A DNA stretch of 57,583 nucleotides from an uncultured Planctomycetales bacterium (GCA_964620805.1 CAZUJQ010000003.1:1-57583), one strand, 5' to 3'; counted from the stretch's first letter, positions 26,059 through 30,131 are shown. Notes: generated by a model from the sequence alone, not told the origin. Numbers and translations: made by a program.

Positions 26059-26306
26059 CAACTTTTATGGAAGAGGATATAAAGCGGGTGATGGCCGATA
26101 TTTTTGGTGTCGATGTCCAAACGGTCAATGAGAATTCATCCATTGATACCCTTCCGGACTGGGATTCACTCAGGCACCTTAATCTTATTTTAGCGCTGGA
26201 AGAAAAATTTCAGATTTCCTTTAGCGAAGAGGAAACGATCGAGATTTTAAATTATAAACTTATCAAAATAGCCCTGGAAAAACACGGGGTGAAATTTGGC
26301 CCTTAA
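26055..26306 (+). CDS. Acyl carrier protein
   Basis: WDSLRHLNLILALEEKF; directly after fkbH. Confidence 0.85.
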   Translation: MTTFMEEDIKRVMADIFGVDVQTVNENSSIDTLPDWDSLRHLNLILALEEKFQISFSEEETIEILNYKLIKIALEKHGVKFGP

Positions 26307-28119
26307 TATAAAGACATCAAGAGGCTACGATTATAAACGTGCCGATTTTTTAAACGCCCTTAAAGCCCTGGGCGTTAAGAAAGATGAGACAATTTTTTCA
26401 CATAGCAATCTCGCTTATTTTGGTGTTCCCGCAGGCAGCATGACATCGGAAAATATCAAAACAATATTTCTGGATTCTATACTGGATACTATCGGCTCCA
26501 AGGGGACATTTGTTGTCCCGACATTTTCTTATACCTTCCCCAATAAGGGCGTTTTTGATATTGAGAAAACGCCATCCGTATGCGGCGTCTTGACAGAGAT
26601 TGTCCGTGGACATCCACAGGCTTATCGCTCCGAAGAGCCTATATTTTCCGTTGCCGCCCTGGGAGCCAAAGCCAGGGAGCTTACTCAAAAGGTGTCTTAT
26701 GAATGTTTTGGAAAAAATACTTTCTGGGATCGTTTTTATGAAAATGACGGATTGATTCTGAATTTTAATTTTGGCGTCGCTGTCACGTTTTTTCATTACA
26801 TCGAAAGAAGTCTAAATGTGCCTTATCGGTATAATAAACTCTTTTTTATTCACACGCGGAAGAATGGATTTATCGAATGCAGGCCAACGGTTTATTTCTG
26901 CCGTGATTTGACCAATGAATTGTTGGAATCCGAATGGTTGGGCATTGATAAGATTGCGCAGGAGCGGGGATTGTCACATGCGGTCAAGATGGGGCGGGGC
27001 TATATCACTTCTGTGGGGGCCCGAGACCTTTATAAGTTAGTTCAAGAGTTGCTGGAAAAGGATACATACTTTCTGACCAAGGCCCGTGATGTCGCCAATA
27101 AACCTTCCTTGCAATCTGCAAAACGCCATTTTGATTTAAAAATCTCCCAGCCATCGATCGACAAAACAATCGGCGCTTTAAGCCGTATCCCGCGGGATAT
27201 GGTTTGTGACGGTTATGACGCATGTCTCCAGGCGCTAACGGATCAAATACCATTTAAAATTTACGATATCCCCACAGGGGTTCAATCAGGAGAATGGATT
27301 GTGCCGGAGAAGTGGACTTGCTATGAAGGATATTTGGCAAAATCAGATGGACAGGAGATCTTCTCGTATGATCAAGGCCCCTCCTGCATTGCCTCCTATT
27401 CGCAATCCTTCGATGGAATTGTCGAACGCGAGGAATTATTGAAGCATATTTGGACGGATCCTTTATCAAAGGACGACGTCCCGAGTGCATTTCTGTATTA
27501 TGATTCGAATTGGGGATTCTGTTTATCCCGTTTCCTAAGCGAGAAATTCACGGATTCCCAATATCGCGTGGTTATCAAAAGCGATTTAAGCTATGGTTCA
27601 TTGAAGATCGCTGAGGCCGCTGTCAAAGGAAAGAAAGGGGATACCATTATTCTTATTAGTCATTTGACCGACCAGAAAAGATTTAAAGACGGACTTTTGA
27701 GCACCCATCTGGGAATAAGAATTTTTAAGAAGTTGAAGGAAGGGAATACAAATCTTTCCTACTGTTTTATTATTCTCCCGCAGAGCTTTCATTTACCACT
27801 TTATCTAAATCTACTTTCCGATAAGAGCCATATCTTCGGGGGATTGCTTTTTGATGGAATCGGTTCAATGCCCTATGCTTTGGCTATCCCTAAGGGCGGC
27901 CATGCGGACTTTGTTTCAAAAACTGTCAACGCCTTCAAAGAATTTAATCCCGAAGGCAAGATAGAAGAACTTTTGATACGGTTAAATGCGGGTTTTGAGC
28001 ATAAAAGTTTATATTGGACAGAAAGTGAGATTCCGATTGTTTCGTTATCGGGTCCCGAATCGTCGGAAACCGAGAAATTCGTGAGCCATTTGTTGGACAA
28101 ATGGGAAACTTGCAGCTGA
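26296..28119 (+). CDS. AAC(3)-family N-acyltransferase fused to a degenerate DUF2172/DUF4910 (M28-like) domain
   Basis: TTG start. N-half IFSHS..GTFVVPTFSY..HYIERSLNVPYRY. C-half IPFKIYDIPTG..WIVPEKW..YYDSNWGFCL..YRVVIKSDL is homologous to the next gene but lacks the CHP..NDN motif. Confidence 0.75.
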   Translation: MALNIKTSRGYDYKRADFLNALKALGVKKDETIFSHSNLAYFGVPAGSMTSENIKTIFLDSILDTIGSKGTFVVPTFSYTFPNKGVFDIEKTPSVCGVLTEIVRGHPQAYRSEEPIFSVAALGAKARELTQKVSYECFGKNTFWDRFYENDGLILNFNFGVAVTFFHYIERSLNVPYRYNKLFFIHTRKNGFIECRPTVYFCRDLTNELLESEWLGIDKIAQERGLSHAVKMGRGYITSVGARDLYKLVQELLEKDTYFLTKARDVANKPSLQSAKRHFDLKISQPSIDKTIGALSRIPRDMVCDGYDACLQALTDQIPFKIYDIPTGVQSGEWIVPEKWTCYEGYLAKSDGQEIFSYDQGPSCIASYSQSFDGIVEREELLKHIWTDPLSKDDVPSAFLYYDSNWGFCLSRFLSEKFTDSQYRVVIKSDLSYGSLKIAEAAVKGKKGDTIILISHLTDQKRFKDGLLSTHLGIRIFKKLKEGNTNLSYCFIILPQSFHLPLYLNLLSDKSHIFGGLLFDGIGSMPYALAIPKGGHADFVSKTVNAFKEFNPEGKIEELLIRLNAGFEHKSLYWTESEIPIVSLSGPESSETEKFVSHLLDKWETCS

Positions 28120-30131
28120 AAGCACTGTCTAAGAAATCTAAGAAGCCCAAACCACCAATGTCAGATCCCATCGATATCGGACAAGAGATTTATGGGCTTA
28201 TGGTTGAGCTTTATCCGATTTGCCGTAGTATCACCGGCGATGGCGTTCGAAAAACGCTGCGCATAATTTCAAAACATATTCCCCTTAAGGTCACAGAAGT
28301 GCCGACCGGGATAAAAGTGTTGGATTGGACCGTACCCAGAGAGTGGAACATTAAGGATGCTTATATTAAAAATTCTAGGGGAGAGAAGATAATAGATTTC
28401 AAGCATTCCAATCTGCATGTTTTGAATTACAGTGTGCCTGTCTCTAAAACGGTAAACCTCGAAGAATTAAAGAAACATATTTTTACTTTGCCCCAATATC
28501 CCGATCGAATACCTTACCGGACGTCCTATTATCAGGAGAATTGGGGCTTTTGTATGACTCACCATCAGTTCCAGCAATTAAAAGAGGATACGTATAAAGT
28601 TGTGATCGACTCAGAGCTAAAAGAAGGGAGCCTTACCTTTGGTGAGTTCTTTCTTGAGGGGAATTCAAAAGAAGAAATCTTGTTTTCCTGTTATCTTTGC
28701 CATCCCTCTTTGTGCAATGACAATTTAAGCGGAATTGTCCTTTTGACATTCTTGGCCAAATCCCTTTTAGGGCATTCTTTAAAATATTCGTATCGGTTTT
28801 TGTTTATTCCGGAGACAATCGGCTCTATTACGTGGTTGAGTTTAAATGAAGAAAGGGTCGAAAATATCAAAGGTGGATTAGTCGCAACCTGTGTGGGTGA
28901 TCCCGGTTCAATGACCTACAAGAAAAGCCGCAAAGCAAATACCTTGATTGATAAGACGGTGGAAAAAGCCCTGATTGATTTAAAAGATCCCTATAAAATC
29001 ATCGACTTTTTTCCATCGGGAAGCGATGAGCGTCAATTCTGTTCTCCGGGTTTTAATTTGCCGATCGGTTCATTGATGAGGACCCCCTACGGGCAGTTTT
29101 CTCAATATCATACTTCGGCCGATAATTTAGATTTTGTAGAGCCTCAATATTTAGGCGATTCCTTTAAAAAATATGAAGCGGTCGTTTCAATCTTAGAAAA
29201 AGATAGTACCTACCTTAATCTTAATCCTAAATGCGAGCCTCAATTGGGAAAGCGGGGACTTTACAGTATGATCAGCGGATTTGGTGAGGACGGAGCCAGG
29301 GAGGTAGCTATGCTCTGGGTTCTTAATCTTTCCGATGGAAACCACTCCCTCTTAGATATTGCTATCCGTTCACAATTGCCTTTTGAACGGATTAGAGAGG
29401 CGGCCGACGCCTTATTGAAAAGCGGTCTATTAAAAATCGCACTAACCACACAGAAAGAAGATTTTACTCCGATGTCCCCATGTCCATCTCAGGCGGATGA
29501 AGCAGCGGTGGATCGGAGTTTCCCGACCGAAGCATCGGGGAACCGCGAAACAAAAGAGGCCATGGACGATAGCCCACGGAGCTTCACCTTAAGGCAGGCG
29601 CGGAAGAATGACTGCAAGGATTTATGGGTTTGGCGCAATCACCCTGAGGTCAGAAAGTGGTGTTTTAATAAAGAGGGAATCCCCTATGGGCAGCATAAAA
29701 CATGGTTTGAAGGGATATCAAAAAACGGCAAAACAACGATATTTATCATACAAGGGAAGGATAAGGAAAAGCTCGGCCAAGTGAGGTTCGATGGTGTCGG
29801 TTCTGAAAAGGCTCTCATCAATATCAATCTTAATCCGAAATTTTTTAACAGAGGAATCGGGACGCGCGCGATTCAAATGGCGACAAGAATTTTTTTAGAG
29901 TCCACCCCGGCAGTTAAAGAAATTATTGCCGAGATTTTTAAACAGAATGCCGTTTCAAAGCGAGCTTTTCAAAAAGCGGAATATTTAAAGCTAAGAAGTG
30001 AAGTCAAAAACAACGAGAAAATAGAGATTTTTTCCTTTAAGCGTAGCCTTAAAGTTCCTGAAAATGCAAGTGAAAAATCAAACCGATATATTTATGAAAA
30101 AAGAGGGCAATGCCTGGTTTCAGAGAAATAA
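28101..30131 (+). CDS. DUF4910 (DUF2172 + M28-like + HTH) protein fused to PseH-like GNAT acetyltransferase
   Basis: YPICRSITGDGVRKT, WTVPREW, YRTSYYQENWGFC, CHPSLCNDNLSG, SDERQFCSPG, YHTSAD, CEPQLGKRGLY; then LRQARKNDCKDLWVWRNHPEVR..HKTWF..IGTR..NAVSKRAF. True start may be ATG 28158. Confidence 0.82.
   Translation: MGNLQLKALSKKSKKPKPPMSDPIDIGQEIYGLMVELYPICRSITGDGVRKTLRIISKHIPLKVTEVPTGIKVLDWTVPREWNIKDAYIKNSRGEKIIDFKHSNLHVLNYSVPVSKTVNLEELKKHIFTLPQYPDRIPYRTSYYQENWGFCMTHHQFQQLKEDTYKVVIDSELKEGSLTFGEFFLEGNSKEEILFSCYLCHPSLCNDNLSGIVLLTFLAKSLLGHSLKYSYRFLFIPETIGSITWLSLNEERVENIKGGLVATCVGDPGSMTYKKSRKANTLIDKTVEKALIDLKDPYKIIDFFPSGSDERQFCSPGFNLPIGSLMRTPYGQFSQYHTSADNLDFVEPQYLGDSFKKYEAVVSILEKDSTYLNLNPKCEPQLGKRGLYSMISGFGEDGAREVAMLWVLNLSDGNHSLLDIAIRSQLPFERIREAADALLKSGLLKIALTTQKEDFTPMSPCPSQADEAAVDRSFPTEASGNRETKEAMDDSPRSFTLRQARKNDCKDLWVWRNHPEVRKWCFNKEGIPYGQHKTWFEGISKNGKTTIFIIQGKDKEKLGQVRFDGVGSEKALININLNPKFFNRGIGTRAIQMATRIFLESTPAVKEIIAEIFKQNAVSKRAFQKAEYLKLRSEVKNNEKIEIFSFKRSLKVPENASEKSNRYIYEKRGQCLVSEK
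29483..29543. repeat. Two short palindromes inside the DUF4910-GNAT linker
   Basis: TCCATC-TCA-GGCGGA (29483-29497, imperfect) and GTTTCCCGA-CCGAAGCA-TCGGGGAAC (29518-29543, 9-bp stem with one G-U). Confidence 0.5.

What the first reader, a model, noticed from the sequence alone, without database searches (positions are those of the whole stretch)
26296..29450. Tandem DUF4910 paralogs: one intact, one degenerate and fused to AAC(3)
Seen: IPFKIYDIPTGVQSGEWIVPEKW aligns with IPLKVTEVPTGIKVLDWTVPREW, and YYDSNWGFCL with YYQENWGFCM. The AAC(3)-fused copy has ISHLTDQKRFKDG where the intact copy has SCYLCHPSLCNDN, and it lacks the C-terminal SDERQ/YHTS/HTH parts. Inference: a pseudoenzyme scaffold or heterodimer partner that physically links AAC(3) acyl transfer to DUF4910, a Rosetta-stone clue to the function of this DUF.
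Basis: partly seen in the sequence, partly recalled or inferred. Interest (0 to 1): 0.64.

Follow-up and report, generated by a model that had tools for sequence, protein, structure and literature searches.

The report
Acyltransferase carrying a dead DUF4910 domain
In a sugar-decoration gene cluster from a hot-spring microbe, an acyltransferase carries a catalytically dead copy of a zinc enzyme domain (DUF4910) and sits beside an intact copy; this is a degenerate variant of a gene fusion already widespread in databases.

Summary
ORF1 (26296-28119, 607 aa) has an AAC(3)-fold (Antibiotic_NAT) N-half and a DUF4910/DUF2172 C-half. The two DUF4910 parts align at 30% identity over 249 aa (E 2e-33).

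ORF1's C-half has lost two of the three zinc ligands, the PE, DERQ and YH(T/S)S motifs and the whole wHTH. It is still predicted to fold like 3k9t.

The pair is not a local tandem duplication. ORF1 as a whole belongs to a widespread family of about 700-aa AAC(3)-like/DUF4910 fusions whose DUF4910 half is normally intact. A rough tree gives about five separate degenerations of that half. A stand-alone intact DUF4910 lies nearby in 8 of 12 degenerate loci against 1 of 60 intact ones.

Best reading: a relic pseudo-domain kept for folding or substrate binding, with ORF2 supplying catalysis, in an FkbH-ACP N-acyl-exchange module of a pseudaminic-acid-type locus.

The functional link between the two domains is real, but the 2014 CA_C2195 paper and database annotations already imply it. 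The heterodimer idea is untested, and loss of the trimerising wHTH weighs against it. Interest is modest.

The parts
23238..24236 (+). SAM-dependent methyltransferase, upstream member of the acyl-building module
   Evidence: Pfam Methyltransf_11/12/25. Found at the same position in the syntenic loci L001-L003.
24229..26058 (+). FkbH-type HAD-IIIC protein, the presumed glyceryl-ACP loader
   Evidence: NCBIfam TIGR01686 FkbH domain, 281.8 bits against a cut-off of 146.65; Pfam FkbH_N.
26055..26306 (+). Acyl carrier protein (83 aa); its end overlaps the ORF1 start
   Evidence: PP-binding at E 0.001, 19.7 bits against a gathering score of 20.8. NCBIfam ACP models also score below their cut-offs. 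A small gene sits at the same position in L001-L003.
26296..28119 (+). ORF1, 607 aa: AAC(3)-fold acyltransferase fused to a degenerate DUF4910/DUF2172 domain
   Evidence: AF2 model: pLDDT 88.6, pTM 0.85.
26323..27075 (+). Antibiotic_NAT (AAC(3)-fold) domain, ORF1 residues about 10-260
   Evidence: Pfam PF02522, 90 bits. Foldseek to AAC(3)-IIIa, AAC(3)-IVa and FrbF, target-normalised TM-score 0.76-0.81.
26785..26805 (+). Catalytic motif T164-F-F-H167-Y-I-E170 (TxΦHΦAE type)
   Evidence: The family profile aligns this His/Glu to 'ttlHlaEl' of AAC(3)-IVa, whose catalytic His is H154, and to 'tsvHlsEv' of BA2930, whose catalytic His is H183. Motif definition from PMC8956665. H167 and E170 are invariant in 40 fusion proteins.
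27172..28116 (+). Degenerate DUF4910 (M28-like) domain, ORF1 residues 293-607; ends at the M28/wHTH boundary with no wHTH
   Evidence: Pfam; phmmer to 3k9t, E 1e-25; Foldseek to 3k9t, E 1e-28 over 341 columns; alignment.
27301..27585 (+). DUF2172 insert ('lid') domain, residues 336-430; the best-conserved part of the C-half
   Evidence: Pfam PF09940, E 5e-20, full profile. W340, Y368, Y401 and Y402 correspond to the conserved aromatics W70, Y98, Y131 and Y132 of CA_C2195.
27670..27690 (+). Former metal-site segment D459-Q-K-R-F-K-D465 (His to Asp, Ser to Lys, Asp kept)
   Evidence: Site table; alignments.
28101..30131 (+). ORF2, 676 aa: intact DUF4910/DUF2172 + wHTH + GNAT. Gene callers place the start at 28101, 28110 or 28158
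28191..29204 (+). Intact DUF4910 with DUF2172 insert; zinc ligands H201 (28701-28703), D207 (28719-28721), H337 (29109-29111)
   Evidence: Pfam E 4e-110; 3k9t E 4e-175; ligand table; ligands defined in PMC4000134.
29208..29435 (+). HTH_47 circularly permuted winged helix, the trimerisation element in CA_C2195
   Evidence: Pfam PF16221, E 2e-29; its role in oligomerisation from PMC4000134.
29586..29978 (+). GNAT acetyltransferase domain, PseH-like but below the family cut-off, joined by a linker of about 45 aa
   Evidence: Pfam Acetyltransf_3, 47.9 bits. TIGR03585 PseH, 45.3 bits against a cut-off of 93.1. It is a separate gene in L003 and fused again in P0077.
30064..30771 (+). Second SAM-dependent methyltransferase, downstream
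   Evidence: Pfam Methyltransf_11/25.

Best explanation
ORF1 descends from a bifunctional enzyme made of an AAC(3)-fold N-acyltransferase and a zinc-dependent DUF4910 amidase-like domain. This fusion is widespread in nonulosonic-acid loci.

In the lineage of this window the fused DUF4910 half lost its metal ligands, its other conserved active-site motifs and its wHTH. It became a folded but catalytically dead pseudo-domain. The likely cause is redundancy: the operon also carries a stand-alone, intact Cj1295/CA_C2195-type DUF4910 (ORF2).

The N-terminal helices and the DUF2172 'lid' of the relic remain under purifying selection. They probably support folding of the acyltransferase or help hold the sugar or carrier-protein substrate.

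Inferred function, not shown: the gene set is an N-acyl-exchange module acting on a pseudaminic-acid-type sugar.
- FkbH, ACP and the methyltransferases build an (O-methyl)glyceryl-ACP.
- The DUF4910 of ORF2 removes an N-acetyl group.
- The ORF1 acyltransferase and/or the ORF2 GNAT re-acylates the freed amine.
For: Domain make-up and homology.

Loss of the active site: ORF1 lacks two of three zinc ligands and the PE, DERQ and YH(T/S)S motifs, while ORF2 keeps all of them. At the former ligand positions the four closest relatives differ from each other (DKD, NAD, DHD, EN-), so no substitute site is conserved.

Fold: the AF2 model is confident (pLDDT 88.6, pTM 0.85). Its C-half matches 3k9t (E 1e-28) and its N-half matches AAC(3) structures.

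The acyltransferase half looks active: T164/H167/E170 are kept.

Ancestry: ORF1 is homologous over its full length to fusions of about 700 aa with intact DUF4910 and wHTH, for example P0004 at E 3e-147. Its C-half is closer to those (185-206 bits) than to ORF2 (122 bits).

Relaxed but non-neutral evolution:
- Intact pair P0004/P0005: AAC3 half 55% identical, DUF parts 67-83%.
- Degenerate clade: AAC3 half 50-56%, DUF2172 29-51%, M28 core 14-38%.
- No gaps up to residue 530 among window, P0002 and P0003.
- Invariant residues in the six-sequence alignment A3: 64 in residues 1-270, 25 in 293-445, 5 in 446-607.

Recurrence: degenerate fusions fall in about five clades of an NJ tree.

Companion gene: a stand-alone intact DUF4910 lies within 6-8 kb in 8 of 12 degenerate loci against 1 of 60 intact-fusion loci (Fisher p 3.5e-7).

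Synteny: L001 and L003 share the order FabH, MaoC/SDR, MTase, FkbH, ACP, fusion, DUF4910, with a GNAT gene next in L003 (L001's contig ends before that position). L002 shares the order up to the fusion but has no DUF4910 or GNAT after it.

Pathway context: PseG, NeuB/PseI, a PseC-type aminotransferase and cytidylyltransferases lie in the window. Intact fusions sit near NeuB, PseC and CMP-transferase genes. Cj1295 is genetically required for the N5 di-O-methylglyceroyl form of pseudaminic acid (PMC3068675).
Against: - No biochemical activity is known for any DUF4910 protein. Deacetylation is a hypothesis from Hitchen 2010 and Das 2014.
- In C. jejuni 11168 the AAC(3)-like gene Cj1296/7 is switched off, yet the dimethylglyceroyl sugar is still made (Table 1 of PMC3068675; PMC6003734). 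The AAC(3)-like enzyme may therefore not be the glyceroyl transferase.
- Three degenerate loci (L002, L067, L084) show no stand-alone DUF4910 within the flanks fetched.
- The Fisher test is not corrected for phylogeny, and the NJ tree is rough, with long branches on the degenerate forms.
- Purifying selection is inferred from deep comparisons only. No dN/dS estimate was possible.
Confidence: 0.6

Rival explanations
1. One reading: the dead DUF4910 domain of ORF1 forms a hetero-oligomer with the intact DUF4910 of ORF2. This would tether the AAC(3)-like acyltransferase to the deacylase so that the free-amine intermediate is passed directly between them.
For: - The two genes are adjacent, on the same strand, and overlap or lie at most 38 nt apart.
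- Degenerate fusions usually co-occur with a stand-alone intact copy.
- CA_C2195 is a trimer whose wHTH docks on insert-domain loop 62-64 of a neighbouring subunit. The matching 'PTG' loop is kept in ORF1.
- Pairing of a pseudoenzyme with its active paralogue is a known pattern (my own knowledge).
Against: - ORF1 lacks the wHTH, which provides most of the trimer interface.
- The region matching interface loops 293-305 of CA_C2195, around DERQ, is degenerate in ORF1.
- L002, L067 and L084 have the degenerate fusion with no nearby partner.
- The M28 core is the fastest-evolving part of the protein.
- No multimer prediction could be run.
Confidence: 0.2
2. Plain neutral decay: the C-half is a dying remnant with no role, on its way to deletion.
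For: - The C-terminal tail erodes step by step among relatives: 626, 607, 579 and 553 aa in the window's clade, and 427-455 aa in the L067/L071 clade.
- The M28 core is only 14-38% identical among relatives, and the tail 12-29% with large gaps.
Against: - About 315 codons stay open in at least four lineages whose acyltransferase halves are only 50-56% identical.
- Alignments have no gaps up to residue 530, and 25 residues are invariant in 293-445, including the DUF2172 aromatic cluster.
- ORF1, P0002 and P0003 all end within a few residues of the M28/wHTH domain boundary.
- The AF2 model of the C-half is confident.
Confidence: 0.12
3. The C-half is still an enzyme that uses a remodelled active site, with or without metal.
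For: One ligand (D465) and the overall fold are kept. The DUF2172 lid is well conserved.
Against: - Residues at the former ligand and motif positions are not conserved even among the four closest relatives.
- The segment carrying the third ligand is deleted.
- Only 5 residues are invariant in 446-607.
Confidence: 0.05

Closest known systems
AAC(3)-like/DUF4910 fusion proteins of about 700 aa, annotated by JGI as 'aminopeptidase-like protein/aminoglycoside N3'-acetyltransferase' (e.g. P0004; P0005 from Desulfonauticus submarinus)
   Same: Same domain order and full-length homology, 36-42% identity at E down to 3e-147. Same catalytic His/Glu in the acyltransferase half. Same nonulosonic-acid or polysaccharide locus context.
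   Different: Those proteins keep the H..D..PE..DE..H residues and the wHTH. ORF1 has lost them and is about 100 aa shorter. Their loci rarely hold a second DUF4910 (1 of 60).
CA_C2195 of Clostridium acetobutylicum (PDB 3k9t) and Cj1295 of Campylobacter jejuni: stand-alone DUF4910/DUF2172/HTH_47 proteins
   Same: ORF2 residues 24-446 match 3k9t at E 4e-175 with all three zinc ligands. ORF1's C-half has the same fold. The neighbouring gene set (FkbH, ACPs, FabH, methyltransferases, GNAT, AAC(3)-like) resembles Cj1295-Cj1304 and CA_C2195-2199. The C. acetobutylicum list is. The C. jejuni list rests partly on my own knowledge, partly.
   Different: ORF2 has an extra fused GNAT domain. ORF1's copy is fused behind an acyltransferase, has no wHTH and has no complete metal site.
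Antibiotic_NAT family members without aminoglycoside activity (FrbF, YokD, BA2930)
   Same: Same fold and same TxΦHΦAE-type motif. FrbF acetylates an amine on a CMP-linked substrate (my own knowledge), which is a precedent for this fold acting on a CMP-linked sugar.
   Different: Those are single-domain proteins. Identity to ORF1 is only about 20% in the structural alignment. Neither the acyl donor (CoA or ACP) nor the acceptor of ORF1 is known.
Catalytically inactive M28-fold homologues such as transferrin receptor
   Same: An M28-like fold kept after loss of the metal site and used for a non-catalytic role (discussed in PMC4000134).
   Different: No sequence relationship beyond the clan. Here the dead domain is fused to an active enzyme, and an active paralogue is encoded next to it.

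Membership tests
Pfam Antibiotic_NAT (PF02522), AAC(3) fold | Profile match above the gathering score | tested here: met
   90 bits against a cut-off of 25; residues 56-254 cover profile positions 17-232 of 232.
Pfam Antibiotic_NAT (PF02522), AAC(3) fold | Catalytic TxΦHΦAE motif with a His/Glu dyad | tested here: met
   T164-F-F-H167-Y-I-E170, with Ile where the motif has Ala. It aligns to the motif holding catalytic H154 of AAC(3)-IVa and H183 of BA2930. H167 and E170 are invariant in 40 homologues.
Pfam Antibiotic_NAT (PF02522), AAC(3) fold | Three-dimensional fold | tested here: met
   Foldseek of the AF2 model against AAC(3)-IIIa, AAC(3)-IVa and FrbF: target-normalised TM-score 0.76-0.81, E about 1e-17.
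AAC(3) aminoglycoside-resistance enzymes (NCBIfam AAC_3 models) | Score above the curated equivalog or subfamily cut-off | tested here: not met
   Best score 52.5 bits against 270 (NF033082); the other models score 17-41 bits against 420-675. ORF1 should not be called a resistance gene.
AAC(3) aminoglycoside-resistance enzymes (NCBIfam AAC_3 models) | Acetylation of the aminoglycoside 3-amine | not testable with these tools
   Needs an enzyme assay or MIC measurement.
DUF4910/DUF2172/HTH_47 family (CA_C2195, Cj1295) | DUF4910 profile match | tested here: met
   ORF2: 367 bits, full profile. ORF1: 51.9 bits against a cut-off of 26.6, but only profile positions 5-145 of 247.
DUF4910/DUF2172/HTH_47 family (CA_C2195, Cj1295) | Single-zinc site formed by His189, Asp195 and His324 (CA_C2195 numbering) | tested here: not met
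   ORF1 has D459, D465 and a gap. ORF2 meets this feature with H201, D207 and H337 (ligands).
DUF4910/DUF2172/HTH_47 family (CA_C2195, Cj1295) | DUF2172 insert domain with its conserved aromatic residues | tested here: met
   ORF1 PF09940 at E 5e-20, full profile, with W340, Y368, Y401 and Y402 kept. ORF2 at E 1e-41.
DUF4910/DUF2172/HTH_47 family (CA_C2195, Cj1295) | C-terminal circularly permuted wHTH (HTH_47) | tested here: not met
   Absent from ORF1, which ends at the M28/wHTH boundary. Present in ORF2 at residues 370-445.
AAC(3)-like/DUF4910 fusion family | Antibiotic_NAT followed by DUF4910/DUF2172 in one polypeptide, with full-length homology to other members | tested here: met
   57 clusters share the architecture, with query coverage mostly 83-98% among the closer hits. 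The fusion also appears in most of the 80 GTDB loci.
PseH (TIGR03585) | Score above the equivalog cut-off | tested here: not met
   The C-terminal domain of ORF2 scores 45.3 bits against 93.1. It can only be assigned to the GNAT superfamily.

The most novel reading that the evidence does not exclude
The dead DUF4910/DUF2172 domain is not a passive relic. In this reading it has been repeatedly repurposed, in about five lineages, as a docking module. It would bind the CMP-linked or UDP-linked aminosugar, the glyceryl-ACP, or the wHTH of the stand-alone DUF4910. ORF1 and ORF2 would then form a channelling complex for N-deacylation followed by re-acylation of nonulosonic acids. That would make this a recurrent case of a pseudoenzyme evolving beside its active paralogue.
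Probability: 0.15. Interest if true: 0.6.

Novelty: new variant of a known kind. Interest (0 to 1): 0.38.

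Why it matters
DUF4910 is a very large and highly conserved family. A search with ORF2 returned at least 8000 matches (the scoring cap), the best at 61-71% identity across bacterial and archaeal phyla. Its only functional clue is genetic: Cj1295 is needed to put a dimethylglyceroyl group on pseudaminic acid in Campylobacter flagellin.

Intact AAC(3)-like/DUF4910 fusions are common. DUF4910 is also found fused to GNAT and to methyltransferase domains. Together these support a testable model in which DUF4910 removes, or exchanges, an N-acyl group on a nonulosonic acid and a partner acyltransferase installs a new one.

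The degenerate copy in this window adds an evolutionary point. When a stand-alone DUF4910 is present, the fused one tends to lose its active site but keeps its lid domain. This suggests which part of the domain matters for the acyltransferase. It also offers a natural 'catalytically dead' control for biochemistry.

It does not reveal a new kind of system.

Tried and rejected
- **dN/dS on the C-half.** Not possible. Other samples carry identical DNA, and the nearest homologue is only 47% identical.
- **Closer relatives or an organism name.** The GTDB genome scan found nothing above about 47% identity. The source is known only as a hot-springs metagenome.
- **AF2 of ORF2.** The model is poor (pLDDT 57.9, pTM 0.48), probably because the alignment is shallow and has little diversity. 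I did not use it. The 3k9t sequence match serves instead.
- **Multimer prediction of ORF1 with ORF2.** The tool folds single chains only, and model coordinates cannot be reached from scripts. The interdomain and heteromer geometry therefore stays untested.
- **Local tandem duplication.** Rejected: ORF1's C-half is closer to the DUF4910 half of intact fusions than to ORF2.
- **Aminoglycoside-resistance gene.** Rejected: all NCBIfam AAC(3) models score far below their cut-offs.
- **The 104-aa ORF at 18992-19306 as a second carrier protein.** Pfam gives no support. I keep it only as a lead.
- **Literature search for a biochemical assignment of DUF4910 or of the AAC(3)-like partner in nonulosonic-acid pathways**. 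Nothing was found beyond the Cj1295 genetics and the 2014 structure paper.

Full report
**What is there**

Two same-strand ORFs fill the region.
- ORF1 (26296-28119, 607 aa) has a Pfam Antibiotic_NAT domain at residues 56-254, a DUF2172 domain at 339-429, and a DUF4910 match at 293-523 that covers only profile positions 5-145 of 247.
- ORF2 (28101-30131, 676 aa) has a complete DUF4910 (E 4e-110), DUF2172 and HTH_47. ORF2 therefore ends at 30131, not 29450.
- All the quoted peptides are present. ORF1's C-half aligns to ORF2 at 30% identity over 249 aa, E 2e-33.
- Gene callers start ORF2 at 28101, 28110 or 28158. The two genes therefore overlap or lie at most 38 nt apart.
- Identical DNA was assembled from two further JGI samples and is present in a second sequencing run. 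The source is a hot-springs metagenome.

**Is the fused copy degenerate?**

- ORF2 matches the crystal structure 3k9t (CA_C2195) at E 4e-175.
- In CA_C2195 the single zinc ion is held by His189, Asp195 and His324. Ser191 and Pro225 replace the classical M28 catalytic residues (PMC4000134).
- A site table from a MAFFT alignment shows that ORF2 keeps H201, S203, D207, P237-E238, D309-E310 and H337.
- ORF1 has D, K, D, P-Q, E-H and a gap at those positions. It has no HTH_47.
- An AF2 model of ORF1 is confident (pLDDT 88.6, pTM 0.85). By Foldseek the C-half matches 3k9t (E 1e-28, 341 columns), and the N-half matches AAC(3) structures and FrbF (target-normalised TM-score 0.76-0.81).
- The C-half is therefore a folded M28-like domain without a metal site, that is, a pseudoenzyme domain.
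- The N-half keeps the family's TxΦHΦAE-type motif as T164/H167/E170 (motif from PMC8956665). It is probably an active acyltransferase.
- It is not an AAC(3) resistance enzyme by NCBIfam criteria: 52.5 bits against a cut-off of 270.

**Where the fused copy comes from**

- A protein search found 57 clusters with the same Antibiotic_NAT + DUF4910 architecture. Most are about 700 aa and include HTH_47. JGI annotates them as 'aminopeptidase-like protein/aminoglycoside N3'-acetyltransferase'.
- A scan of GTDB species genomes returned 80 loci from Gemmatimonadota, Acidobacteriota, Verrucomicrobiota, Sumerlaeota, Chloroflexota, Planctomycetota, deltaproteobacterial groups and others.
- In nearly all of these the fused DUF4910 half has the full H..D..PE..DE..H set.
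- ORF1 is homologous to these intact fusions over its full length (P0004, E 3e-147).
- Its C-half scores 185-206 bits against their DUF4910 halves but only 122 bits against its neighbour ORF2.
- ORF2 belongs to a different subfamily, the stand-alone Cj1295/CA_C2195 type, recognisable by 'CHPS..ND'.
- The two copies are therefore ancient paralogues brought together in one operon, not a local tandem duplication.

**A recurring pattern**

Degenerate fused DUF4910 halves occur in these groups:
- the window and its nearest relatives P0002/L001, P0003/L002 and P0010/L003 (39-47% identity);
- L022 (Bacteroidales);
- L042, L050 and L054 (Deltaproteobacteria);
- L067 and L071 (Verrucomicrobia);
- L072, L073 and L084 (Omnitrophota, Nitratireductor, Stygiobacter).

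On an NJ tree of 71 fusions these fall into about five clades nested among intact forms. The tree is rough and the degenerate forms sit on long branches.

A stand-alone intact DUF4910 lies within 6-8 kb in 8 of 12 degenerate loci, against 1 of 60 loci with an intact fusion (Fisher p 3.5e-7). This test is not corrected for phylogeny, and L080 is probably a frameshifted intact fusion rather than a true degenerate. Every degenerate clade has at least one member with such a companion. L002, L067 and L084 show none in the flanks fetched.

**Constraint on the relic**

Region-by-region identities:
- In the intact pair P0004/P0005 the DUF4910 parts are 67-83% identical, more conserved than the acyltransferase half at 55%.
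- In the window's clade the order is reversed: acyltransferase 50-56%, DUF2172 insert 29-51%, M28 core 14-38%, C-terminal tail 12-29% with large gaps.

Even so, about 315 codons stay open in four lineages, and alignments among window, P0002 and P0003 have no gaps up to residue 530. In the six-sequence alignment A3, 64 residues are invariant in 1-270, 25 in 293-445 and only 5 in 446-607. The 25 include W340, Y368, Y401 and Y402. These match the aromatic cluster that Das et al. proposed for substrate recognition in the DUF2172 'lid'.

ORF1, P0002 and P0003 all end a few residues after the 'ID.WE' helix, which is the M28/wHTH boundary.

My reading is relaxed selection rather than neutral decay. 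The lid and N-terminal helices are kept, the catalytic core drifts, and the tail erodes.

**Context and likely function**

The whole window is a surface-polysaccharide locus. It contains:
- PseB-like and PseC-like genes (5733-8439);
- PseG (13792-14937);
- NeuB/PseI (14934-15980);
- cytidylyltransferases (32733-33479 and 34912-35679).

Directly upstream of ORF1 are SDR, methyltransferase, FabH, MaoC/SDR, methyltransferase, FkbH and ACP genes. Another methyltransferase lies downstream. The same order is found in L001 and L003, and in L002 up to the fusion gene.

The component list matches the C. jejuni Cj1295-Cj1304 region and CA_C2195-2199 (partly my own knowledge). Cj1295 is required for the 5-N-(2,3-di-O-methylglyceroyl) form of pseudaminic acid, and Hitchen et al. 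proposed that it removes the N5 acetyl group.

Intact fusions sit beside NeuB, PseC and CMP-transferase genes (28, 34 and 27 of 59 loci) and usually without FkbH or ACP. FkbH and ACP accompany degenerate fusions in two separate clades.

My inferred model is an N-acyl-exchange module. DUF4910 (here ORF2) deacylates, and the AAC(3)-like and/or GNAT domain re-acylates with an ACP-borne or CoA-borne acyl group. Independent fusions of DUF4910 to an AAC(3)-like domain, to GNAT (ORF2; P0077) and to a methyltransferase (P0094) support a functional link.

A caution: in C. jejuni 11168 the AAC(3)-like gene is switched off while the dimethylglyceroyl sugar is still made. Which acyltransferase installs which group therefore remains open.

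**The scaffold or heterodimer idea**

CA_C2195 is a trimer. Its interface is formed mainly by the wHTH, which contacts insert-domain loop 62-64 and M28 loops 293-305 of a neighbouring subunit. ORF1 lacks the wHTH, and its counterpart of the 293-305 region is degenerate. It does keep the 'PTG' insert loop. A heteromer in which the wHTH of ORF2 docks on ORF1 is therefore not excluded, but the evidence leans against it, and I could not test it.

**Novelty**

Das et al. (2014) reported the linkage of CA_C2195 homologues with aminosugar N-acetyltransferase genes, 'in some cases gene fusions'. Their supplement lists aminoglycoside N3'-acetyltransferase neighbours. The fusion architecture is already annotated in public databases.

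As far as my searches show, three points are new:
- this copy is a dead, wHTH-less variant of the fusion;
- such degeneration appears to recur;
- it correlates with the presence of a stand-alone Cj1295-type enzyme.

I rate this a new variant of a known kind, of modest interest.

Noticed in passing
window 29439-29978 (ORF2 residues 447-626): The intact DUF4910 is itself fused, through a low-complexity linker of about 45 aa, to a PseH-like GNAT domain. In L003 the GNAT is a separate 158-aa gene, and P0077 (599 aa) is another DUF4910+GNAT fusion. This is a second, independent acyltransferase fusion to DUF4910.
   Followed up: partly
window 28101-28160: The ORF2 start is ambiguous. Public gene calls give 676, 673 and 657 aa, with starts at 28101, 28110 and 28158. 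ORF2 therefore either overlaps ORF1 by 10-19 nt or follows it after 38 nt.
   Followed up: partly
window 18992-19306 (+): A 104-aa ORF with a 'GGNLDSISF' motif looks like a second acyl carrier protein, placed ahead of the SDR, methyltransferase, FabH and MaoC/SDR genes. Pfam gives no hit. A gene of the same size sits at the same place in L003.
   Followed up: partly
loci L001-L003, L042, L050, L054 compared with the intact-fusion loci: FkbH and ACP genes accompany the degenerate fusions in two separate clades (6 of 14 loci). They are almost absent next to intact fusions (2 of 59), which instead sit beside NeuB, PseC and CMP-transferase genes.
   Followed up: partly
P0101, P0103, P0094; P0036-P0057: AAC(3)-like domains are also fused to the other DUF4910 subfamily (the Cj1295 type, 'CHPS..ND'), and DUF4910 is also found fused to a methyltransferase. 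DUF4910 fusions to sugar-modifying enzymes have therefore arisen several times.
   Followed up: no
window 12188-13903 (+) and 55980-57530 (-): Two B12-binding radical SAM proteins lie in or at the edge of the polysaccharide locus. Their role, perhaps C-methylation, is unknown.
   Followed up: no
window 10069-12162 (+): A HemL-like (glutamate-1-semialdehyde aminomutase family) aminotransferase carries an N-terminal extension of about 270 aa with no family assignment.
   Followed up: no
window 32733-36638 (+): Two cytidylyltransferases (one PseF-like, one KdsB-like), a HAD hydrolase, an HpcH/HpaI aldolase and a 2-hydroxyacid dehydrogenase lie together. They hint at a second ulosonic-acid-type sugar pathway in the same locus.
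   Followed up: no
window 30772-32733 (+): A 653-aa protein with only weak Epimerase_2 and surface-carbohydrate family hits. It is conserved immediately downstream of the module in L002 and L003, where precomputed Pfam hits name it PFTS_polysacc or LIC12162.
   Followed up: no
window 52809-54320 (+) and 54211-55746 (-): Two long ORFs on opposite strands overlap by about 110 nt. Neither has a Pfam hit.
   Followed up: no
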